From IMG/VR virus record IMGVR_UViG_3300014846_000073: a stretch of 33,013 bases of DNA; one strand, written 5' to 3'. This document shows positions 1,948-33,013 of the stretch, one piece after another (position 1 is the stretch's first letter; each line of letters starts with the position of its first letter). The DNA comes from a virus. Its lineage: Duplodnaviria > Heunggongvirae > Uroviricota > Caudoviricetes. The notes below the pieces were generated by a model. It made no database searches, was not told where the DNA came from, and saw only the letters and a program-made list of their open reading frames with translations. The translations under genes and the position numbers were made by a program.

Positions 1948-4216
1948 AGCCTCCGGGCGTTTTGTCCCTCCATCAGCATTTGCCGCAGGCACCGGTAAGG
2001 CGTTTACCGGTGCTTATGCATGGAACGCGCCACGCGAGGCTGTCGGGCGCGAAAGACCCCTTACACGTGACGAGATGCGTCAGGTGCAAGGTGTTTTATC
2101 CACGATTAACCGCCTGCCTTACTTTTTGCGCTCGCTGTTTACTTCACGCTATGACTACATCCGGCGCAATAAAAGCCCGGTGCACGGGTTTTATTTCCTC
2201 ACATCCACTTTTCAGCGTCGTTTATGGCCGCGCATTGAGCGCGTGAATCAGCGCCATGAAATGAACACCGACGCGTCGTTGCTGTTTCTGGCAGAGCGTG
2301 ACCATTATGCGCGTCTGCCGGGGATGAATGACAAGGAACTGAAAAAGTTTGCCGCCCGTATCTCATCGCAGCTTTTCATGATGTATGAGGAACTCTGCGA
2401 TGCATGGGTTGATGCACATGGCGAGAAAGAATCGCTGTTTACGGATGAGGCTCAGGCGCATCTGTATGGTCATGTTGCTGGCGCTGCACGAGCTTTCAAT
2501 ATTTCCCCTCTCTACTGGAAAAAATACCGTAAAGGACAGATGACCACGAGGCAGGCATATTCTGCCATTGCCCGTCTGTTTAACGATGAGTGGTGGACTC
2601 ATCAGCTTAAAGGTCAGCGTATGCGCTGGCATGAGGCGTTACTGATTGCTGTCGGGGAGGTGAATAAAGACCGTTCTCCTTATGCCAGTAAACATGCCAT
2701 TCGTGATGTGCGTGCGCGCCGCCAGGCAAATCTGGAATTTCTTAAATCGTGTGACCTTGAAAACAGGGAAACCGGCGAGCGCATCGACCTTATCAGTAAG
2801 GTGATGGGAAGTATTTCTAATCCTGAAATTCGCCGGATGGAGCTGATGAACACCATTGCCGGTATTGAGCGTTACGCCGCCGCAGAGGGTGATGTGGGGA
2901 TGTTTATCACGCTGACCGCGCCGTCAAAGTATCACCCGACACGTCAGGTCGGAAAAGGCGAAAGTAAAACCGTCCAGCTAAATCACGGCTGGAACGATGA
3001 GGCATTTAATCCAAAGGATGCGCAGCGTTATCTCTGCCGCATCTGGAGCCTGATGCGCACGGCATTCAAGGATAATGATTTACAGGTCTACGGTTTGCGT
3101 GTCGTCGAGCCACACCACGACGGAACGCCGCACTGGCATATGATGCTTTTTTGTAATCCACGTCAGCGTAACCAGATTATCGAAACCATGCGTCGCTACG
3201 CGCTCAAAGAGGATGGCGACGAAAGAGGAGCCGAGCGAAACCGTTTTCAGGCGAAACACCTTAACCGGGGCGGTGCTGCGGGGTATATCGCGAAATACAT
3301 TTCAAAAAATATCGACGGCTATGCACTGGATGGTCAGCTCGATAACGATACCGGCAGACCTCTGAAAGATACTGCCGCGGCTGTTACTGCATGGGCGTCA
3401 ACGTGGCGCATCCCGCAATTTAAAACGGTTGGTCTGCCGACAATGGGGGCTTACCGTGAACTACGCAAATTGCCTCGCGGCGTCAGCATTGCTGATGAGT
3501 TTGACGAACGCGTCGAGGCTGCACGCGCTGCCGCAGACAGTGGCGATTTTGCGTTGTATATCAGTGCGCAGGGTGGGGCAAATGTTCCGCGCGATTGCCA
3601 GACTGTCAGAGTCGCCCGTAGCCCGTCGGATGAAGTTAACGAGTACGAGGAAGAAGTCGAGAGAGTGGTCGGCATTTACGCGCCGCATCTCGGCGCGCGT
3701 CATATTCATATCACCAGAACGACGGACTGGCGCATTGTTCCGAAAGTTCCGGTCGTGGAGCCTTTAACTTTAAAAAGCGGCATCGCCGCGCCTCGGAGTC
3801 CTGTCAATAACTGTGGAAAGCTCACCGGCGGTAATACTTCGTTACCGGTTCCCACACCTTCTGAGCACGCCGTAGCAGTGCTAAATCTGGTTGATGACGG
3901 TGTCATCGAATGGAGTGACCCGGAGGTCGTGAGGGCGCTCAGGGGTGCATTAAAACACGGACTGAGAAGACCAAACCGCCAGCAAAGAAACGGAAGCCCG
4001 TTAAAACCGCATGAAATAGCGCCATCGGCCAGACTGACCCGGTCGGAACGAATGCAAATTACCCGTATCCGCGTTGACCTTGCTCAGAACGGTATCAGGC
4101 CGCAGCGATGGGAGCTTGAGGCGCTGGCGCGTGGCGCGACCGTAAATTATGACGGGAAAAAATTCGCTTATCCGGTCGCTGATGGATGGCCAGGGTTCAC
4201 AACTGTAATAGATTGA
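1937..4216 (+). CDS. A: P2-type replication initiation protein A (rolling-circle nicking endonuclease)
   Basis: 760 aa from ATG 1937 (MAVKASGRF...), which I judge the real start rather than the 1895 ORF-track start; contains the two-tyrosine active-site region GYIAKYISKNIDGY characteristic of P2 gpA. Confidence 0.9.
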   Translation: MAVKASGRFVPPSAFAAGTGKAFTGAYAWNAPREAVGRERPLTRDEMRQVQGVLSTINRLPYFLRSLFTSRYDYIRRNKSPVHGFYFLTSTFQRRLWPRIERVNQRHEMNTDASLLFLAERDHYARLPGMNDKELKKFAARISSQLFMMYEELCDAWVDAHGEKESLFTDEAQAHLYGHVAGAARAFNISPLYWKKYRKGQMTTRQAYSAIARLFNDEWWTHQLKGQRMRWHEALLIAVGEVNKDRSPYASKHAIRDVRARRQANLEFLKSCDLENRETGERIDLISKVMGSISNPEIRRMELMNTIAGIERYAAAEGDVGMFITLTAPSKYHPTRQVGKGESKTVQLNHGWNDEAFNPKDAQRYLCRIWSLMRTAFKDNDLQVYGLRVVEPHHDGTPHWHMMLFCNPRQRNQIIETMRRYALKEDGDERGAERNRFQAKHLNRGGAAGYIAKYISKNIDGYALDGQLDNDTGRPLKDTAAAVTAWASTWRIPQFKTVGLPTMGAYRELRKLPRGVSIADEFDERVEAARAAADSGDFALYISAQGGANVPRDCQTVRVARSPSDEVNEYEEEVERVVGIYAPHLGARHIHITRTTDWRIVPKVPVVEPLTLKSGIAAPRSPVNNCGKLTGGNTSLPVPTPSEHAVAVLNLVDDGVIEWSDPEVVRALRGALKHGLRRPNRQQRNGSPLKPHEIAPSARLTRSERMQITRIRVDLAQNGIRPQRWELEALARGATVNYDGKKFAYPVADGWPGFTTVID

Positions 4217-4322
4217 AATAGTGTGAATATCTAAGAGATAAAACTATATAAGGTGTGTATTAATACTGTGCTGGAGGAAAAGGTGAAAACCAGATGGCAT
4301 GGCTACAATAATAAAACGATAA

Positions 4323-4349
4323 GCCTCATTTTTAATGAGGCCGTTTTTA
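4323..4349 (+). terminator. rho-independent terminator downstream of A (hairpin plus T-tract); may also act on the convergent minus-strand operon
   Basis: GCCTCAT / ATGAGGC 7-bp stem with 5-nt loop, followed by CGTTTTTAT. Confidence 0.5.
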
Positions 4350-4381
4350 TTACATCAAAAGAATTGAATTGTATTGTTAAC

Positions 4382-5053
4382 TTAAAGGGCAAACCTTTCT
4401 ATGGTTCGATACACCTTGTCAAAAATTTGCTCTGAAAGTGAAATGGACCCATTTGTGTTAATTTCTAATGACTCATAACCGGTAACGTCCTTAACATTAA
4501 GTTTAACTTTATCAATTGTAAAATTTGCATTTTTGAAAATGTTTCTTATTTCCATAAGTGCGTCACTTGATGACTCAAGTTCCAGTATGCCGGATGTGTG
4601 TTTGCTAAACGTTAAGTCTTTTAATTTTGCCTTGTGCACTTGTATTTTTTCAAAGTGCGGGGTCAGGAAATAAATGAAGTCCTCAATTTTGATGTTGAGA
4701 TTTGACACATTAAAATCAGAATGTGTTGATTTAATTATGTTTGATATGAAGTTCTTAATGCTTCTGGGAGGCGACTCAATGATTAAGATGAAGTTTTTAC
4801 CTTTTGTTGTGTAAAGCCAAAAGTTAAATTGAATATATTTTAGCTGTGTATATTGAGTCTCGTTTCCATATGGATCAACGATTATCTCGTTGACCTCTAC
4901 TTTCTCGATGTATCGAGATGATATTGCATTTTCTTCATATGAGTTGATACTAAATCCCCAGCCTTTATCACTATCAAAAGGAGTGTTAATGATAGACTGA
5001 TATAAACTATCAAGTCCAGCAGGGAAGTTGGCAGTAAACCATTTTGTTTTCAT
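4382..5053 (-). CDS. hypothetical protein, third gene of AT-rich accessory operon (no recognisable domain)
   Basis: 223-aa ORF; AAGGAG Shine-Dalgarno 7-8 nt upstream of ATG; AT-rich codon usage unlike the phage backbone. Confidence 0.6.
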   Translation of the reverse strand: MKTKWFTANFPAGLDSLYQSIINTPFDSDKGWGFSINSYEENAISSRYIEKVEVNEIIVDPYGNETQYTQLKYIQFNFWLYTTKGKNFILIIESPPRSIKNFISNIIKSTHSDFNVSNLNIKIEDFIYFLTPHFEKIQVHKAKLKDLTFSKHTSGILELESSSDALMEIRNIFKNANFTIDKVKLNVKDVTGYESLEINTNGSISLSEQIFDKVYRTIERFAL

Positions 5054-5064
5054 AACAACTCCTT

Positions 5065-6177
5065 TTATTTATCAGTAACAACCTCAATTGTGTTGGAGGC
5101 GATAATACTGTTTGAAATTTCGCGAGCGGTTTTTTCAAGTGCTAATAATAGCAGTTTTTCCTTCTCTTTATCTACATTTTGACGATTTGCATATTCGTTT
5201 ATATTTTTGTACTTATAAACACCGCGAACGATATACGAGAATAACTTGCAATTATCTGGGTCGACAAATTGAGCCTCGAATTCATATTTGTCCGAGTCTT
5301 TATAAGTGTCAACAACAGAACTCCAAATGATTTTGGTAATATAAAATCCTTTTCCTAACAACTCCTTAAACTCGAGAGAGTCAAGAACGCTGCGCCCTTT
5401 TAGTGAAGCTTTGGAGATATGATATCCTGTGTCAATAATTGTATCGTCATCATCAGAATCATCTTCATTTTCGTTAGACTTATTTGACTCAAGAATTGGA
5501 TGCGTAACGTATACATCCGATACGTCAATGCATTTGTAGTTAGGTATGCTTGAGATTAGTTGCTCAAAAAATTTGCTTCTTTCCGCTGGTGATTTAACAG
5601 TTTCGAGCGAAATCTCATCAAGACTGGCTGGATCCTCATTGTTGTCTTCTTTGATCTTCTCCACGAGGCGCTCGTTGAATTCCCTTGCTTTAGCATTTTG
5701 AGGGAAACGGGTGATAAATTCACCGCTTTCATTCATTTCAACTTGTATTTTGGCTTCACGTGATGAGGATTGGCGAAACTCGCTCATTTTGAAATCTAGT
5801 TTCACATATTTTATTGATACTTCAAAACCATTCTCGGTGTAATTTATATTAGTTATATCGCCTTCTTTTTGAAGATCTTCACAAATAGATTTAATAGTAT
5901 TTTCCATACTATTTTTATCTATATTTGTATTAATAATGTTAATTGATACTTTTTCTCTCCGCCCAACAGAACCGAGTATGTTTGAAAGAAATTCAAAATC
6001 AGAATAGCCATGATAGTATCTGGAAAAATCCAAAGCCAATGTTTTTCGTTTAGTCTCTTTGGATATAATCATTCCTCTTTTAAAAAAGAGACTTTTCATA
6101 TCTTCATGAGTGACTTTAGTTTGATTCAATGCGTCAAACATTGCCTTATCATTTACACTATATAATCCAATTTTCAT
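5065..6177 (-). CDS. hypothetical protein with acidic patch (ENEDDSDDDD), second gene of accessory operon
   Basis: ORF-track frame 5065..6192 starts at a TTG; the ATG at 6177..6175 overlaps the stop of the upstream gene (ATGA coupling), giving 370 aa. Confidence 0.6.
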   Translation of the reverse strand: MKIGLYSVNDKAMFDALNQTKVTHEDMKSLFFKRGMIISKETKRKTLALDFSRYYHGYSDFEFLSNILGSVGRREKVSINIINTNIDKNSMENTIKSICEDLQKEGDITNINYTENGFEVSIKYVKLDFKMSEFRQSSSREAKIQVEMNESGEFITRFPQNAKAREFNERLVEKIKEDNNEDPASLDEISLETVKSPAERSKFFEQLISSIPNYKCIDVSDVYVTHPILESNKSNENEDDSDDDDTIIDTGYHISKASLKGRSVLDSLEFKELLGKGFYITKIIWSSVVDTYKDSDKYEFEAQFVDPDNCKLFSYIVRGVYKYKNINEYANRQNVDKEKEKLLLLALEKTAREISNSIIASNTIEVVTDK

Positions 6178-7238
6178 GCCTGTCGCTCCCAACCAATCTC
6201 TACCGAACTAAAACGAGGCTTTGTAAATTCTACCTGTTGAAAATCAATAGCATCTATTATCGTTTTTTTATGTTCATCGAAACCCCATTCTTGACAATAA
6301 CTATCCTTCGCACGCATAAAAATACTGCGAACATCTTTATGTATGTTAGGGTTAACTATTCTAATTCTTATATTTTCATTGCCATCCAGTAATTGATATT
6401 TAGATAGTGTGTCCAGAATGTAAATAAACTCTAGCTCGTTTTTTCCTTCGCCATTGTAATAAATAATGTAACCATGTTTAAATGTGGTTTCCCATTGTGA
6501 TGTTTCTTCATTGCAATGTCTGACGTCATTATGTTTTATAATAAGGAATGGGCCTGTCAATAATTCTACAGTTGCTGGAAGTTCTTCGGGCGAACCGCTT
6601 ACTTTATGTAGTGAAAGGTCTGGGTAAAAGAATTGATATTTTTTACCGAGTGGAAACTCTCTTTTGTGGCTTAGTTGTGATAAATCGCAGATTATTGACT
6701 GCAGGTAGTTTATAGTTCTTGGTTCAATAATGTGTATTTTTTGACCGGCCCTTACCGGTATATTGTCAAGATTGATACCTCTTTTCTTCTTATCAGTTTC
6801 AGTATTGTGAGACTGATAGAATACATCATAAAAAGATTGGTCAAAGTCTCCGTCATGGTTGTATACAAAGAGCATGCCTCTGACTTCTGACGCACCACTT
6901 TTATAAGAATAACGCTCCTTCCATTCTTTACAACCTTGAGCACAGTCAATAGAATTAGCCAGCGATACTAAAGCATTGCGCATTTTAGTTGCTGTAATTG
7001 AGCCTTTAATATAGCTTTTTAAATCAGTATTTAAAAAAATGGTTCTATTCAAATAGGGATCTTTATAAGAAAATACAACATCAGTTGGATGTGTTCCGGC
7101 TAGTGTTTTATGTTGATCTTTTTTCATGCATGGAAAGTTTTCATTGGTTGGACCAACGAGTTCCCACTTAAACCATTTGAATAGGTCTGAAGATATTTTT
7201 TCTGCCATTGCTGAAATATTTTGAGTTTCACCTGACAT
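6174..7238 (-). CDS. hypothetical protein, first gene of accessory operon (no recognisable domain)
   Basis: 354-aa ORF with ATG at 7238..7236 preceded by an AGGT ribosome-binding site; AT-rich. Confidence 0.6.
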   Translation of the reverse strand: MSGETQNISAMAEKISSDLFKWFKWELVGPTNENFPCMKKDQHKTLAGTHPTDVVFSYKDPYLNRTIFLNTDLKSYIKGSITATKMRNALVSLANSIDCAQGCKEWKERYSYKSGASEVRGMLFVYNHDGDFDQSFYDVFYQSHNTETDKKKRGINLDNIPVRAGQKIHIIEPRTINYLQSIICDLSQLSHKREFPLGKKYQFFYPDLSLHKVSGSPEELPATVELLTGPFLIIKHNDVRHCNEETSQWETTFKHGYIIYYNGEGKNELEFIYILDTLSKYQLLDGNENIRIRIVNPNIHKDVRSIFMRAKDSYCQEWGFDEHKKTIIDAIDFQQVEFTKPRFSSVEIGWERQA

Positions 7239-7476
7239 GATAATTACCTATATATATTTTGTGTAAATCCCTATGAGCCATAACTCTTATGAACCACATG
7301 TAACAACGTGGGGCATATTATGGCTAATCGATCTGTACCATAATTTCATCATTCTTGCATCATCTTGAATGAATTCGCATGCTTACGCCATATCCATATC
7401 AAAACATCAATGTCAACAATGGCGCGGATTCGGCTAAATCATGCAACTGCATTAAAATCGCCCCATGAAGCGGGCG

Positions 7477-7495
7477 GGCGAGGCGGGGAAAGCAC
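7477..7495. other. cos: P2-type cos site (19-nt cohesive-end sequence)
   Basis: Exact match to the P2 cohesive end GGCGAGGCGGGGAAAGCAC as I remember it, located just beyond Q where cos lies in P2. Confidence 0.7.
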
Positions 7496-16916: not shown

Positions 16917-17702
16917 TTATGAGTGATTTTTATTTGATGCTTTGTATTCTAAAACCTTCTTATTGGCGTAAAAGAATTTTGTATATGACAGGAATATAAC
17001 CAGACCTGAAGTGAAATAGACGAGGGATAGTATTAATAATGCTTTTTTGTGACTGTTATTATCTTTAATCTCCTGGCTTAACCATTCGGAGTCCTCCTCG
17101 TTTAGCTGTAAGAGCTTATTGCAGGCGATCTCAGGAAGTGTGTCTTTTATAAATACGTTTTGCAGTTTCTTGCAATCGGCAAGGCTATAAGTTTTATTAA
17201 ATTCAACTGCTTTGTTTTTGAAGGATAAAAGAACTTTGTCACTATAAACATAGTACATCATGTTTTTATATGGTATGCCTATGGCATCCCTTACTATAAC
17301 GGATTGTTTGTTGTGTATGTAACATGCGAGGAGAATGTAAAAAATACTGGTCAGAATTACAATTATTGTTTTAATTATGTGTGGTGGTTTTGTTATGTCA
17401 CCCCAGATGCGAGTAAGGAAAAAATACGATGTTTTTAGTTTTCCATCAATCAGTCCCTGCTGTATCATTCTCACATTTTCAATGCCTGATACATTGATTC
17501 CGTTAATTATTTTAAATAGTTGAATGTCGCGCCACTCGCGGTCAAGTCTTTTTAATTTTTTGTCTGAATATCCAAAATTGAAATAATGTGCAATAAGCCT
17601 CATAAGGTTACTTTTACCAAAGCTAAAAAATGCTAATACTGCAAAGCTACAAAGGAAAAAAACGATTAGCCCCCACACATTAGTCACATTATAGCTGACC
17701 AT
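16917..17702 (-). CDS. AT-rich accessory membrane protein (three predicted transmembrane helices), inserted between S and V
   Basis: 261-aa minus-strand ORF with hydrophobic stretches VWGLIVFFLCSFAVLAFFSF, IIKTIIVILTSIFYILLACYI and ALLILSLVYFTSGLVIFLSY; composition and orientation differ from the flanking late genes. Confidence 0.6.
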   Translation of the reverse strand: MVSYNVTNVWGLIVFFLCSFAVLAFFSFGKSNLMRLIAHYFNFGYSDKKLKRLDREWRDIQLFKIINGINVSGIENVRMIQQGLIDGKLKTSYFFLTRIWGDITKPPHIIKTIIVILTSIFYILLACYIHNKQSVIVRDAIGIPYKNMMYYVYSDKVLLSFKNKAVEFNKTYSLADCKKLQNVFIKDTLPEIACNKLLQLNEEDSEWLSQEIKDNNSHKKALLILSLVYFTSGLVIFLSYTKFFYANKKVLEYKASNKNHS

Positions 17703-17785
17703 TACGCTCTCCTTGAATGTTGTCTGGTAGTTCTACAAATGAATCCAGATAGCATAACTTTTATATATTGTGCAATCTCACATGC

Positions 17786-18421
17786 ATGAACACTCTCGCA
17801 AATATTCAGGAACTCGCGCGCGCACTGCGCAACATGATTCGCACCGGCATTATCGTCGAAACCGACCTTAACGCCGGTCGCTGCCGCGTGCAGACCGGCG
17901 GCATGTGCACCGACTGGCTTCAGTGGCTGACCCATCGCGCCGGTCGTTCGCGCACATGGTGGGCACCTTCCGTGGGAGAACAGGTGCTGATTCTGTCCGT
18001 GGGCGGTGAACTCGACACGGCATTCGTTCTGCCGGGGATTTATTCCGGCGATAACCCCGCGCCGTCTGCGTCGGCGGATGCCCTGCATATCCGTTTCCCT
18101 GACGGGGCGGTGATTGAGTATGAACCCGAAACCAGTGCACTTACGGTAAGCGGAATTAAAACGGCCAGCGTGACGGCTTCTGATTCTGTTACTGCCACGG
18201 TGCCGGTGGTCATGGTGAAAGCATCAACCCGCGTCACCCTGGACACACCGGAGGTGGTCTGCACCAACAGGCTGATTACCGGCACGCTGGAAGTGCAGAA
18301 GGGCGGGACGATGCGCGGCAACATTGAACACACCGGCGGTGAACTCTCATCAAACGGTAAGGTACTGCATACCCATAAACACCCCGGCGACAGTGGCGGC
18401 ACAACAGGGGGACCTCTATGA
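17786..18421 (+). CDS. V: baseplate spike/assembly protein V
   Basis: 211 aa from ATG 17786 (MNTLANIQELARALRNMIRTGIIVETD...); matches P2 gpV. Confidence 0.9.
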   Translation: MNTLANIQELARALRNMIRTGIIVETDLNAGRCRVQTGGMCTDWLQWLTHRAGRSRTWWAPSVGEQVLILSVGGELDTAFVLPGIYSGDNPAPSASADALHIRFPDGAVIEYEPETSALTVSGIKTASVTASDSVTATVPVVMVKASTRVTLDTPEVVCTNRLITGTLEVQKGGTMRGNIEHTGGELSSNGKVLHTHKHPGDSGGTTGGPL

Positions 18422-22792: not shown

Positions 22793-23223
22793 GTTGTATG
22801 ATCTCTGGTGTGAGCTTACATATCTATAGCACAGAGTAAAGCCTAATCTGACAGTCCGCTATGTGCCAAAAGCGGACATAACGACACGTTAGTTAGAAAT
22901 CTCAAGACCAATTAGGTTGGATACTTACATGTATACTATTGCCTAACGATACTACCCTATCAACCTCATGGTTTATAGGCGGGGGTGAGAGCCAATCGAA
23001 CGCTATCGTACGTTTTTATGCTGTCTACCCTAGACCCCAAGTAGACATGAATCTTACCTGATTTCCATACGAGGGCGACGTTGATCATCCAGCTTTAGTG
23101 CGAGCACTGAACTTAACATTTACCAGCAATAGTGATATTTTCTACAAAGAAAAATATATGGAATAACGTCATCGCGGGTACAAAAATGACTATAAAAAAA
23201 CATATGTAACACCAACAGAAATA

Positions 23224-24177
23224 GTGAAATATTTTTATGACAAACCGGAAAACGATAACGTAAAAGAGAGAAAAACAATTGAGAGCCTGACCCGTCTCAA
23301 ACCTGAGTGGGAAAATACTCTCGATATGATGAAGTTAATACGCAATTGTGAAAAGCTAGCAACTGAAGGTATTTTAATGGAATTATCTTCAGGACATACT
23401 CTTTTGGACCGTTGCTATTTCGCACCGAATTTCAATGAATCAGATGCGAAATATGGAAAGTATGATTTTATAGCTGATGGATTTGAGTCAATCATAGACC
23501 GCCTTAGTCCTTCCGTTTTACCTGTTGTTGTTGAAAAAAGTGATGGTTCACATGATCTTGGTACTAGTTTTATTGTTGGGAATAACCACACGATATTTAC
23601 AGCCAGACATGTTATTGAAGACATGAAGAGTATCAGGATACTTAGAGCTGGTGGTGAGGCTTTACCAATACATAAAATCTTTGTATCTAACGATGAACGT
23701 ATTGATATCGCTTTAGTTTTCACAACCATTCCGAATGAAGATAATATTCAACCACTTAAGGTCTCAACCAAAGCCTCGGTACTGGATGAAATTTTATCAA
23801 TAGGATTTCCACCCATTCCAGGATTTGATGCATTAAAGTTATATGACGTTTCGCATATAAATTCGTTTGTCCGACTGTCAAAGGGGCGAATTGTTGGTTC
23901 TGGTCACTCTTACTTAGATTCACAAGACTTTTTATTATTCAATGCTAGGGTTAAGGGGGGGAATAGCGGTGGCCCTATAATTAACAAATACGGCTTTGTT
24001 ATTGGTATGCTTGTACAAATACCAATATCATCTGAGGACAGTTCAAAGATTGATAACCTTGGATATGGTATAGCTGTAACAGGAAAAAGCCTGCTGGATG
24101 CTATTACATTTACAGAAAATGGCCGCGAATTAACACTCACCGACCGAGGAAATGGAGAATATTCAACTCTAGCATAA
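23224..24177 (+). CDS. accessory protein with C-terminal trypsin-like (S1 family) serine-protease domain and an N-terminal domain of about 110 aa with no recognisable motif
   Basis: Catalytic-triad context in correct order: FTARHVIED (His), ERIDIALVF (Asp), KGGNSGGPI (Ser, GDSGGP-like). Start is uncertain: the frame opens at GTG 23224 with a weak ribosome-binding site, and the first in-frame ATG is at 23326. Confidence 0.7.
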   Translation: MKYFYDKPENDNVKERKTIESLTRLKPEWENTLDMMKLIRNCEKLATEGILMELSSGHTLLDRCYFAPNFNESDAKYGKYDFIADGFESIIDRLSPSVLPVVVEKSDGSHDLGTSFIVGNNHTIFTARHVIEDMKSIRILRAGGEALPIHKIFVSNDERIDIALVFTTIPNEDNIQPLKVSTKASVLDEILSIGFPPIPGFDALKLYDVSHINSFVRLSKGRIVGSGHSYLDSQDFLLFNARVKGGNSGGPIINKYGFVIGMLVQIPISSEDSSKIDNLGYGIAVTGKSLLDAITFTENGRELTLTDRGNGEYSTLA

Positions 24178-24384
24178 ATGATATTATTAATTAAGTTGTA
24201 CTAACTCAGTTTAAATGAATCAAGCATCCCCGTAACTTTGCCTGAAAAGGCTCATCGAGGGATGCACATTGTACGGATGTGTGAAAACTAAATCGGCTTT
24301 GTCACTTGGATTCGAGGGGAAAACTGAACTGAAAGCGATAAAAACGTCTAAAAAATCGTTTCGCAGACAGATGCACCCGATTCA

Positions 24385-24416
24385 AGCCATTTTGAGGATG
24401 GCTTTCTGCCTTTTAT
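24385..24416 (+). terminator. rho-independent terminator about 200 nt downstream of the protease gene
   Basis: AGCCAT / ATGGCT stem with 7-nt loop, followed by a T-rich tract (TTCTGCCTTTTAT). Confidence 0.4.
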
Positions 24417-24775
24417 ATTTATATTAATCATAAGGTTATTCCATTGGTGTACGATATCGTGCTTTGCCCCTCATCTCCCAGATAACTAATTAGCCTTAAA
24501 ATTACTCATGTGTTTCTGCCGGTTAAAATTATATGGTTTTCATTTACAATAGTCTCAAGTCCGCTCTTCGCTCAAAGCAGACTGTCAGATTTGATAGCGT
24601 TTTGGCTATGTAAATTGTCAGTCGGGAAATAAGTGAGTACAAATCATGACAGGCGGGCGGATTGTCCGCCTTTTCTTTATCTGTTGTTTCATCCACTGAC
24701 CAGCCAGGTCAAATAGCGTCTCATGCTCTGCACAACAGAAAATACCACTCACCCATTAACCACGGAGTTAGACGG

Positions 24776-31480: not shown

Positions 31481-31507
31481 AAAAAATAAGCCCGTGTAAG
31501 GGAGATT
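31481..31507. other. attR: prophage right attachment-site core (attR), overlapping the 3' end of cyaR
   Basis: AAAAAATAAGCCCGTGTAAGGGAGATT matches the 27-bp P2 att core as I remember it; sits at the phage/host boundary after ogr. Confidence 0.55.
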
Positions 31508-31567
31508 ACACAGGCTAAGGAGGTGGTTCCTGGTACAGCTAGCATTTTATGGGTTATGTTTTTCAGC
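31481..31567 (-). ncRNA. cyaR: CyaR (RyeE) Hfq-dependent small RNA
   Basis: Minus-strand sequence GCTGAAAAACATAACCCATAAAATGCTAGCTGTACCAGGAACCACCTCCTTAGCCTGTGTAATCTCCCTTACACGGGCTTATTTTTT matches CyaR including its terminator; located between yegQ and the ogr end as in E. coli K-12. Confidence 0.78.
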
Positions 31568-31602
31568 GAAACGGATGATAACCTTAATAAATGCAGCTGT
31601 AT

Positions 31603-31651: not shown

Positions 31652-33013
31652 TCACTTACCGTGTGGGTTACGCGTGGTTTCCCCGGAGAAATTACGCATC
31701 AGCAGCGCGTAATTTAGCTCAAGATCCTGCGGGACCGGGAGCCACACAGTATAACCATCGCCTGGTGCGACCGGCATCGCTTCACCTTTGGCGTTTTCCA
31801 TGTGCTCAAGGGTAAAGTTAATGTTGCCTTGCGGCGTCATCAGCTCAAGGCTGTCGCCAACGGAGAATTTATTTTTCACCGCTACCGCTGCGAGGTCCCC
31901 CTTGCGCTCACCGGTAAACTCACCAACAAACTGCTGGCGGTCAGAAACTGAATAACCGTATTCGTAGTTCTGATAATCGTCGTGAGTATGACGACGCAGG
32001 AAACCTTCGGTATAGCCACGATGCGCCAGACCTTCCAGAGTTTCCAGCAGGCTGGTATCGAACGGTTTGCCCGCAGCGGCATCATCGATAGCTTTACGAT
32101 AAACCTGTGCGGTGCGTGCGCAATAGTAGAAAGATTTAGTACGGCCTTCGATTTTCAGCGAATGCACGCCCATTTTGGTCAGGCGTTCTACATGGGCGAT
32201 GGCGCGCAGATCTTTCGAGTTCATGATGTAAGTGCCGTGCTCATCTTCAAACGCGGTCATATACTCGCCCGGACGCTGGGCTTCTTCGATCATAAACACT
32301 TTGTCGGTTGGCGCGCCGATACCTAGCGTCGGCTCAACATTTTGCACCGGAATCGGCTCGTACTTGTGTACGATGTTGCCAACGTCATCTTCTTTCCCTT
32401 CCTGGACGTTGTACTCCCAGCGGCAGGCGTTGGTGCAGGTACCCTGGTTCGGATCGCGCTTGTTGATATAGCCAGAGAGCAGGCAGCGACCGGAGTAGGC
32501 CATGCACAGTGCGCCGTGAACGAAGATCTCGATCTCCATATCCGGCACCTGATTGCGGATCTCTTCAATCTCTTCCAGCGACAGCTCGCGAGAGAGGATC
32601 ACGCGGGTCAGGCCCATTTGCTGCCAGAATTTCACCGTCGCCCAGTTTACGGCGTTAGCCTGCACCGAGAGGTGGATCGGCATTTCAGGGAAGTGCTCAC
32701 GCACCAGCATAATCAGCCCTGGATCGGACATAATCAGCGCATCCGGCCCCATTTCCACCACCGGTTTCAGGTCACGGATAAAGGTTTTCAGCTTGGCGTT
32801 GTGCGGTGCAATGTTGACCACGACATAAAACTTTTTCCCCAGCGCGTGGGCTTCATTGATGCCGAGCTGAAGATTTTCGTGGTTGAATTCGTTGTTGCGC
32901 ACACGCAGGGAGTAACGCGGCTGGCCCGCATAAACAGCATCTGCGCCATAAGCGAAAGCGTAACGCATATTTTTCAGCGTTCCCGCCGGGGAAAGGAGTT
33001 CCGGTTTAAACAT
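31652..33013 (-). CDS. yegQ: host peptidase U32-family protein YegQ (tRNA hydroxylation factor TrhP)
   Basis: 453-aa minus-strand ORF starting at the last three bases of the window; length and neighbourhood (next to cyaR and an ogr gene) match E. coli yegQ; GC and codon usage host-like. Confidence 0.8.
   Translation of the reverse strand: MFKPELLSPAGTLKNMRYAFAYGADAVYAGQPRYSLRVRNNEFNHENLQLGINEAHALGKKFYVVVNIAPHNAKLKTFIRDLKPVVEMGPDALIMSDPGLIMLVREHFPEMPIHLSVQANAVNWATVKFWQQMGLTRVILSRELSLEEIEEIRNQVPDMEIEIFVHGALCMAYSGRCLLSGYINKRDPNQGTCTNACRWEYNVQEGKEDDVGNIVHKYEPIPVQNVEPTLGIGAPTDKVFMIEEAQRPGEYMTAFEDEHGTYIMNSKDLRAIAHVERLTKMGVHSLKIEGRTKSFYYCARTAQVYRKAIDDAAAGKPFDTSLLETLEGLAHRGYTEGFLRRHTHDDYQNYEYGYSVSDRQQFVGEFTGERKGDLAAVAVKNKFSVGDSLELMTPQGNINFTLEHMENAKGEAMPVAPGDGYTVWLPVPQDLELNYALLMRNFSGETTRNPHGK

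What the first reader, a model, noticed from the sequence alone, without database searches (positions are those of the whole stretch)
4382..7238. Uncharacterised three-gene AT-rich operon at the P2 tin/old position between replication gene A and cos
Three minus-strand genes (354, 370 and 223 aa) form a tight operon: the first stop and second start overlap as ATGA, and the third gene sits 11 nt downstream with an AAGGAG ribosome-binding site. GC is about 33% in a sampled 60-nt line, against roughly 60% in the flanking structural genes, and the operon runs opposite to the neighbouring phage genes. In P2 itself this exact interval holds the phage-exclusion genes tin and old, so a defence or abortive-infection role is the most economical hypothesis. 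Reading the proteins, I find no Walker A motif, no HNH motif, no clear PD-(D/E)xK motif, no protease triad, no reverse-transcriptase motif and no transmembrane helices, so it does not resemble any named multi-gene defence system I can recognise. The middle protein has a striking acidic run (ENEDDSDDDD).
Basis: partly seen in the sequence, partly recalled or inferred. Interest (0 to 1): 0.85.

Follow-up and report, generated by a model that had tools for sequence, protein, structure and literature searches.

The report
Known 3HP anti-phage operon in P2 prophage
The three-gene AT-rich operon is a divergent copy of the already described "3HP" anti-phage system carried in the P2 prophage cargo hotspot; its first protein is a DNA-cutting enzyme and its second resembles a ring protein that encircles DNA, which suggests how this system of unknown mechanism may work.

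Summary
Three minus-strand genes (354, 370 and 223 aa) form a tight operon in a 34.5% GC island between P2 gene A and cos.

It is not an unnamed system. All three proteins match, full length and in order, the PADLOC models Hp1, Hp2 and Hp3. They are 36%, 31% and 19% identical to the "hp + hp + hp" system (pFR109) that Rousset et al. 2022 cloned from this same P2 hotspot and showed to protect against phage P1. The exact RefSeq proteins appear in that paper's hotspot table.

- Hp1 has invariant E4, H50-P51-x-D53 and D72-L73-K74.
- Hp1 carries Pfam PF26115 (PDDEXK_GAPS4).
- Its AlphaFold model matches NucS, Shedu SduA, Hachiman HamA and FokI.

The three genes co-occur in every related locus long enough to show all three, across several phyla, mostly outside prophages.

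The likely mechanism is inferred, not shown: an Hp2(/Hp3) DNA-sensing scaffold controls the Hp1 nuclease, as in GAPS4. Known family, modest interest.

The parts
6174..7238 (-). Hp1 (354 aa, 41.2 kDa). It has an N-terminal PD-(D/E)xK nuclease domain (about residues 1-140; E4, H50-P51-x-D53, D72-L73-K74) and a conserved C-terminal domain of unknown role. Predicted effector.
5065..6177 (-). Hp2 (370 aa, 42.7 kDa). It has a basic four-helix N-domain (1-72, pI 9.3) and an RdgC-like alpha/beta body, interrupted by an acidic disordered loop (about 227-251, includes ENEDDSDDDD). Predicted DNA-binding scaffold or sensor.
4382..5053 (-). Hp3 (223 aa, 25.9 kDa). Obligate third component with an unknown fold. 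Conserved PPRSIK.F motif (R97, K100, F102).
   Evidence: PADLOC Hp3 6e-8 over residues 2-201. 19% identical to pFR109 protein 3, E 1e-10. Present after Hp2 in every related locus with enough DNA. No Pfam, NCBIfam or PDB match, and no hhalign match to Hp2, RdgC or RexA.
6174..6177 (-). ATGA overlap of the Hp1 stop and Hp2 start (translational coupling).
   Evidence: Read directly from the sequence.
5059..5064 (-). AAGGAG ribosome-binding site for Hp3, inside the 11-nt Hp2-Hp3 spacer.
   Evidence: Read directly from the sequence.
4322..4342 (.). Bidirectional terminator hairpin between the convergent Hp3 and gene A.
   Evidence: The terminator scan hits both strands: 9 and 8 stem pairs, each followed by a T-rich tail.
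7239..7476 (-). Upstream non-coding region between cos and Hp1, which must hold the operon promoter. The promoter itself was not located with confidence.
   Evidence: Only weak sigma-70-like matches (9 of 12) were found, e.g. 7267..7240. A TTGACA is visible near 7411-7416. This is inference only.
7477..7495 (+). P2-type 19-nt cos sequence, marking the right edge of the cargo hotspot (context, not part of the system).
   Evidence: One exact match, none expected by chance. The same string appears in P2/P4 cloned sequences in Rousset Table S2.

Best explanation
The operon is a divergent, apparently intact member of the 3HP anti-phage system. It is carried as AT-rich cargo in the cos-proximal hotspot of a P2-like prophage.

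Shown here:
- Hp1 is a PD-(D/E)xK nuclease of the GAPS4a-type Pfam family.
- Hp2 has an RdgC-like fold, a basic helical N-domain and a conserved acidic disordered loop.
- Hp3 is an obligate partner of unknown fold.
- The three genes are translationally linked and always co-occur in related loci.

Inferred:
- Hp2, as a dimer or together with Hp3, forms a ring- or horseshoe-shaped DNA-binding scaffold that carries Hp1. [quoted passage not shown]
- In the resting state the nuclease is held off, possibly by the acidic loop occupying the DNA-binding surface.
- During infection the scaffold engages an abnormal DNA state, such as free ends, breaks or replication and recombination intermediates of the invading phage.
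- Hp1 is then released to cut DNA, which stops the phage either directly or by abortive infection.
For: Family identity: PADLOC Hp1/Hp2/Hp3 hits are full length and in gene order. Pairwise matches to the validated pFR109 proteins give E 2e-67, 2e-39 and 1e-10. pFR109 protects against P1. The identical WP_ accessions appear in the P2-hotspot table.

Obligate trio: every one of the 72 genome loci with enough DNA, plus plasmid and phage loci, has Hp1-Hp2-Hp3 in order. Defence-island and mobile-element contexts were seen.

GAPS4 precedent: a2b2 complex, ring-forming b subunit, break-triggered non-selective DNase.
Against: - This particular variant has never been tested. It is only 19-36% identical to the validated one.
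- No complex was modelled, so the ring, the Hp1 docking and the role of Hp3 are all inference.
- The RdgC similarity is structural only. hhalign against RdgC and RexA is negative, Pfam RdgC is not hit, and Foldseek TM-scores are low (0.2-0.35).
- The GAPS4a motif is HGxD-SxK, whereas Hp1 has HPxD-DxK. GAPS4 needs two genes, 3HP always has three. Homology of Hp2 to GAPS4b could not be tested.
- pFR109 protected against only one of eight phages. That fits a specific trigger better than generic sensing of DNA ends.
Confidence: 0.7

Rival explanations
1. The family is the same (3HP), but the system is switched on by a specific phage protein rather than by a DNA state. Hp2 and/or Hp3 would act as protein sensors, and Hp1 would be the abortive-infection nuclease.
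For: pFR109 protected only against P1 among eight phages, which suggests a narrow trigger. Hp3 has no nucleic-acid-binding signature that I could detect. In RexA, an RdgC-fold protein, DNA binding is not strictly needed for exclusion.
Against: Hp2's best structural match is a DNA-encircling protein, and it has a basic N-domain. In the GAPS4 work, no escape phages could be isolated for the system that shares Hp1's nuclease family, and it responds to DNA breaks.
Confidence: 0.2
2. It is a restriction-like system that cuts incoming phage DNA directly, without killing the host. It would tell foreign DNA from self by a structural feature rather than by methylation.
For: Hp1 has a PD-(D/E)xK nuclease fold with restriction-enzyme neighbours such as FokI, Upx, BstEII and McrC. 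The system resides in a prophage that must spare its own host.
Against: No methyltransferase or modification gene lies in the island. No sequence-recognition domain was identified. The related GAPS4 degrades both host and phage DNA.
Confidence: 0.15
3. It is not primarily a defence system. It would be a recombination or replication accessory module (an RdgC-like modulator plus a nuclease) that serves the mobile element itself.
For: RdgC modulates RecA and replication restart. In V. parahaemolyticus the trio lies near RecT, SSB and YqaJ genes.
Against: A homologous trio gives phage resistance when cloned alone. The trio sits in a variable cargo slot, not a core slot, and only 10 of 1528 related E. 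coli prophage-bearing genomes carry it. It also occurs beside Mrr and NYN genes in an Alteromonas island.
Confidence: 0.05

Closest known systems
3HP / 'hp + hp + hp' system of the P2 hotspot (Rousset et al. 2022, pFR109 from E. coli E1114; PADLOC Hp1/Hp2/Hp3; DefenseFinder name Rst_3HP recalled from memory)
   Same: Same three proteins in the same order, with full-length matches. Same genomic slot between gpA and cos/portal of a P2-like prophage. The family is a validated anti-phage system, active against P1.
   Different: Only 36%, 31% and 19% identical to the tested proteins, so this is a distinct subtype. Its phage range is unknown. I found no published mechanism for the family.
GAPS4 (Vibrio GMT-island system; Mahata et al., bioRxiv 10.1101/2025.09.07.674715)
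   Same: Hp1 falls in Pfam PF26115, PDDEXK_GAPS4. Hp1 (41.2 kDa) plus Hp2 (42.7 kDa) gives 83.9 kDa, close to the 80.4 kDa per a+b pair implied by the 160.8 kDa GAPS4 a2b2 complex. GAPS4b is described as a ring with an alpha-helical globular domain that docks the nuclease, which resembles Hp2's helical N-domain plus RdgC-like body.
   Different: GAPS4 has two genes, while 3HP always has three. The catalytic motif is HGxD-SxK in GAPS4a and HPxD-DxK in Hp1. Hp2-GAPS4b homology was not tested, and the GAPS4 preprint does not mention 3HP.
RdgC / lambda RexA / Iml3-Chl4 fold class
   Different: There is no sequence similarity to RdgC or RexA. Hp2 has an extra N-terminal helical domain and an acidic loop. 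Its partner is a nuclease, not a membrane protein like RexB.
Shedu (SduA) and Hachiman (HamA) PD-(D/E)xK defence effectors
   Different: The sensors differ (a helicase in Hachiman, self-assembly in Shedu). There are no PADLOC hits to those families.
P2 old and tin
   Same: They occupy the same cargo slot and play the same ecological role, phage exclusion by a prophage.
   Different: There is no homology. No Walker A or ATPase is present, and only the Hp1/Hp2/Hp3 models hit in PADLOC.

Membership tests
3HP (PADLOC Hp1/Hp2/Hp3; Rousset 2022 hp+hp+hp) | Three adjacent, co-oriented genes in the order Hp1-Hp2-Hp3 | tested here: met
   ORFs 6174..7238, 5065..6177 and 4382..5053, all on the minus strand, overlapping or 11 nt apart.
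3HP (PADLOC Hp1/Hp2/Hp3; Rousset 2022 hp+hp+hp) | Each protein matches its family profile over nearly its full length | tested here: met
   Hp1 1.7e-63 (profile positions 1-330 of 333), Hp2 3.6e-37 (4-353 of 359), Hp3 6e-8 (3-199 of 227). BLASTP against the validated proteins gives 2e-67, 2e-39 and 1e-10. The Hp3 match is weak but collinear.
3HP (PADLOC Hp1/Hp2/Hp3; Rousset 2022 hp+hp+hp) | Confers phage resistance when expressed | not testable with these tools
   Shown only for pFR109, against P1. This variant is untested.
PD-(D/E)xK nuclease superfamily (Hp1) | Conserved catalytic D ... (D/E)xK residues on the core fold | tested here: met
   D53, D72 and K74 (plus E4, H50, P51) are invariant in 78 sequences and in the distant clade. 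In the model D53 sits between strands 49-52 and 55-60, and D72-x-K74 lies in strand 65-76.
PD-(D/E)xK nuclease superfamily (Hp1) | Restriction-endonuclease-like alpha/beta fold | tested here: met
PD-(D/E)xK nuclease superfamily (Hp1) | Nuclease activity | not testable with these tools
   Needs biochemistry.
GAPS4 | GAPS4a-type nuclease domain (Pfam PF26115) | tested here: met
   All listed full-length Hp1 homologues, including the 100%-identical P0001, carry a precomputed PF26115 hit. The local Pfam copy lacks this model, so I could not recompute it.
GAPS4 | Catalytic motif HGxD-SxK | tested here: not met
   Hp1 has an invariant HPxD ... DLK instead.
GAPS4 | Two-component system (GAPS4a + GAPS4b, adjacent or fused) | tested here: not met
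   Three genes appear in every locus with enough DNA. There are no fusions among the top 150 Hp2 relatives.
GAPS4 | Second protein homologous to GAPS4b | not testable with these tools
   GAPS4b sequences (WP_055466294.1, WP_028132564.1) could not be retrieved. Only the architectural resemblance described in the text is available.
RdgC family (Hp2) | Sequence membership (Pfam RdgC, or a profile match to E. coli RdgC) | tested here: not met
   No Pfam hit. hhalign probability 0.8%.
RdgC family (Hp2) | RdgC-like three-dimensional fold | tested here: met
RdgC family (Hp2) | Ring-shaped dimer that binds DNA in a basic pore | not testable with these tools
   Only a monomer could be modelled.
P2 Old / Tin | OLD-family ATPase-TOPRIM protein, or Tin | tested here: not met
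   No Walker A. PADLOC returns only Hp1/Hp2/Hp3.

The most novel reading that the evidence does not exclude
3HP, GAPS4 and lambda Rex could form one mechanistic class in which an RdgC-fold DNA clamp senses abnormal DNA and gates an effector. In 3HP specifically, Hp2 and the orphan Hp3 would build a heteromeric clamp around DNA, analogous to Iml3-Chl4. The conserved acidic loop would act as a built-in DNA mimic that keeps the Hp1 nuclease silent until phage DNA displaces it. The literature I could search does not propose this.
Probability: 0.3. Interest if true: 0.55.

Novelty: already known. Interest (0 to 1): 0.3.

Why it matters
As a discovery it adds little. The system is named, standard defence-annotation tools detect it, and these exact proteins appear in the 2022 hotspot catalogue.

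Its remaining value is mechanistic, because I found no published mechanism for 3HP. The analysis here assigns a nuclease effector and an RdgC-like DNA-binding partner, and shows the trio is obligate across phyla. It also links 3HP to GAPS4, a break-sensing DNase, and by fold to RexA.

That gives concrete experiments: catalytic mutants, nalidixic-acid sensitisation, and complex stoichiometry. These could explain how a widespread but neglected system works, and why it needs a third subunit that GAPS4 lacks.

Tried and rejected
- Pfam-A and NCBIfam scans of the three proteins gave only noise. For Hp1 this is a gap in the local library, which lacks PF26115. Even P0009, which UniRef names as a GAPS4-domain protein, got no hit.
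- PHROGs gave only 'unknown function' families.
- Profile searches of PDB sequences with all three alignments found nothing.
- Hp3 as a paralogue of Hp2 was rejected at the sequence level (hhalign probability 0.3%).
- Hp2 and Hp3 against E. coli RdgC and lambda RexA showed no sequence signal.
- I tried to reach GAPS4b through fused proteins with an exhaustive Hp2 profile search. It found 614 clusters, but the top 150 are all stand-alone proteins of typical Hp2 size or shorter fragments.
- The weak plasmid hit H40 looked like a possible GAPS4a-type relative. It is a decayed copy of the distant three-gene clade.
- The afdb50 fold library was unavailable.
- Megablast of the island against INPHARED phages found nothing. 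Protein-level search found 8 phage records.
- The structure-prediction cap left no job for Hp3 or for any complex.
- A confident promoter could not be assigned.
Full report
**1. Observation**

The first stop and second start overlap as ATGA at 6177..6174. The third gene starts 11 nt after the second stop and is preceded by AAGGAG.

The operon is 34.3% GC. Gene A is 53.4%, the portal gene 52.7% and the terminase gene 57.1%. The island is therefore real, although the flanks are nearer 55% than 60%.

The P2 19-nt cos sequence lies at 7477..7495. Gene A stops at 4216, and a bidirectional terminator hairpin sits at 4322..4342. The operon converges on A but runs the same way as the portal and terminase genes, so the 'opposite to neighbours' statement is only half right.

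No Walker A, YxDD or transmembrane segment exists.

**2. Identity**

PADLOC models Hp1, Hp2 and Hp3 hit the three proteins in gene order and nearly full length, at 1.7e-63, 3.6e-37 and 6e-8.

Rousset et al. 2022 (PMC9122126) surveyed exactly this gpA-to-portal hotspot. [quoted passage not shown] This is plasmid pFR109, 'hp + hp + hp', from E. coli E1114.

The window proteins are 36%, 31% and 19% identical to the pFR109 proteins, with collinear alignments at E 2e-67, 2e-39 and 1e-10.

The island is 99-99.9% identical to nine complete E. coli chromosomes. In one of them the proteins are WP_024160514, WP_001398851 and WP_032238998. Those accessions are listed as a hotspot arrangement in Rousset's Table S5.

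So this is a catalogued, divergent subtype of a named and validated defence family, not an unnamed system.

**3. Cargo behaviour**

The cos+portal segment occurs in 1528 of 5426 complete E. coli genomes. The island occurs in only 10.

Among 80 species-representative genomes that encode an Hp1 relative, only three show P2 gpA or portal flanks. Other contexts are:
- a V. parahaemolyticus conjugative-type region,
- an Alteromonas island next to Mrr and NYN genes,
- plasmids, Klebsiella Peduoviridae, and 13-kb Pseudomonas elements.

**4. Obligate trio**

I built HMMs from my Hp1, Hp2 and Hp3 alignments. They find all three genes, in order and on one strand, in every locus with enough downstream DNA (72 of 80). 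The eight exceptions end at contig edges. The taxa include Gammaproteobacteria and Betaproteobacteria, Cyanobacteria, Acidobacteriota, Desulfobacterota and Zixibacteria.

A plasmid clade only 26-29% identical in Hp1 still keeps Hp2 (5e-27) and Hp3 (4e-22).

**5. Hp1**

All 119 full-length homologues listed carry precomputed Pfam PF26115, PDDEXK_GAPS4. The local Pfam copy lacks this model, which explains the empty result.

In 78 sequences H50, P51, D53, D72, L73, K74 and S75 are invariant, and E4 is nearly so. The distant clade keeps them too.

The AlphaFold model (pLDDT 87.1, pTM 0.86) places D53 between two strands and D72-x-K74 inside the next strand, after a long N-terminal helix that carries E4. 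This is the canonical arrangement.

The C-terminal ~180 residues are conserved but unassigned.

**6. Hp2**

The model is confident (pLDDT 83.3, pTM 0.73), except for residues 236-248, which lie in the acidic run.

The RexA structure paper (PMC11077077) groups RdgC, RexA, Iml3 and Chl4 into one DNA-binding fold class. In it, RdgC is a ring dimer with a basic pore, and RexA is a prophage exclusion protein.

No sequence similarity to RdgC or RexA is detectable, so this is a fold-level statement only.

The N-terminal four-helix domain is basic (pI 9.3). The loop is 10-34 residues across the family, with 42% D/E and 7% K/R. The family has 614 clusters at 50% identity.

**7. Hp3**

Hp3 is conserved (invariant G33, E50, G63, F78, R97, K100, F102, G202). 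It has no detectable relative by any method available.

**8. Mechanism**

The GAPS4 preprint (10.1101/2025.09.07.674715) reports the following:
- GAPS4a is a PD-(D/E)xK DNase.
- The a2b2 complex degrades host and phage DNA once DNA breaks appear.

Three things point to an analogous device in 3HP:
- Hp1 shares the Pfam family of GAPS4a.
- Hp1 and Hp2 are similar in size to the GAPS4 subunits (83.9 kDa against 80.4 kDa per a+b pair).
- Hp2 has a helical N-domain plus an RdgC-like body.

I therefore infer a DNA-sensing scaffold that gates a nuclease. I suggest the acidic loop as a candidate autoinhibitor, and Hp3 as an extra regulatory or clamp subunit. None of this was shown here.

Differences from GAPS4 are clear. 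The motif is HPxD-DxK rather than HGxD-SxK, there are three genes rather than two, and the Hp2-GAPS4b link is untested. I therefore do not file 3HP as GAPS4.

The narrow range of pFR109 (P1 only) keeps a specific-trigger model alive.

**9. Verdict**

The defence interpretation is right, but the claim of novelty is wrong. The system is already known as 3HP, and the only new content is a structure-based mechanistic hypothesis. I found no mechanistic paper on 3HP in the searchable library.

Noticed in passing
window 16917..17702 (-): A second AT-rich island (GC 0.35) lies between the S-like and V-like tail genes. It holds a 261-aa ORF (phrog_2407, unknown function) with no Pfam or PADLOC hit. From memory this is the P2 orf30 cargo slot. 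The adjacent 128-aa ORF at 17702..18088 (-) overlaps the V-like gene on the other strand and is probably spurious.
   Followed up: partly
window 23224..24177 (+), island about 23000..24500: A third AT-rich island (GC 0.37-0.38) lies between the tail-fibre assembly and sheath genes, the P2 Z/fun slot. It encodes a 317-aa trypsin-like serine protease (PF13365, 2.4e-17). PADLOC hits only the protease domains of RT-Protease_XI, LmuA and PDC-M35A. This is a possible single-gene defence candidate.
   Followed up: partly
window 31484..31569 (-) and 31652..33013 (-): A CyaR/RyeE sRNA (Rfam RF00112, 100.7 bits) is followed by a U32 peptidase gene. This is host DNA, so the prophage's right end abuts cyaR.
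   Followed up: partly
L042 6001..8835 compared with window 4382..7238: In an Erwiniaceae P2-like prophage the same trio lies between gpA and portal but in the opposite orientation to the window. That is what a freely inserted cargo cassette would look like.
   Followed up: no
phage records OR621024.1 and OR621021.1 (H11, H16): Pseudomonas 'phages' 99-2 and 54-4 are records of only about 13 kb, the size of a satellite. They carry an Hp1 homologue annotated 'nuclease related protein'.
   Followed up: no
L092 (pKP100-mcr8) 2307..5311: A decayed copy of the distant three-gene clade (Hp1 split) sits next to an IS110 transposase on an mcr-8 IncF plasmid.
   Followed up: no
L002 (V. parahaemolyticus) 3141..6761: The trio sits directly after an Endonuclease_1 gene, between a RecT/SSB/YqaJ module and TraN/TraU conjugation genes. 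This suggests carriage on an integrative conjugative element.
   Followed up: no
tool library (not sequence): The local Pfam-A copy has no PF26115 model, whereas the precomputed annotations do. A 'no Pfam domain' result for Hp1-like proteins from the local scan is therefore a false negative.
   Followed up: yes
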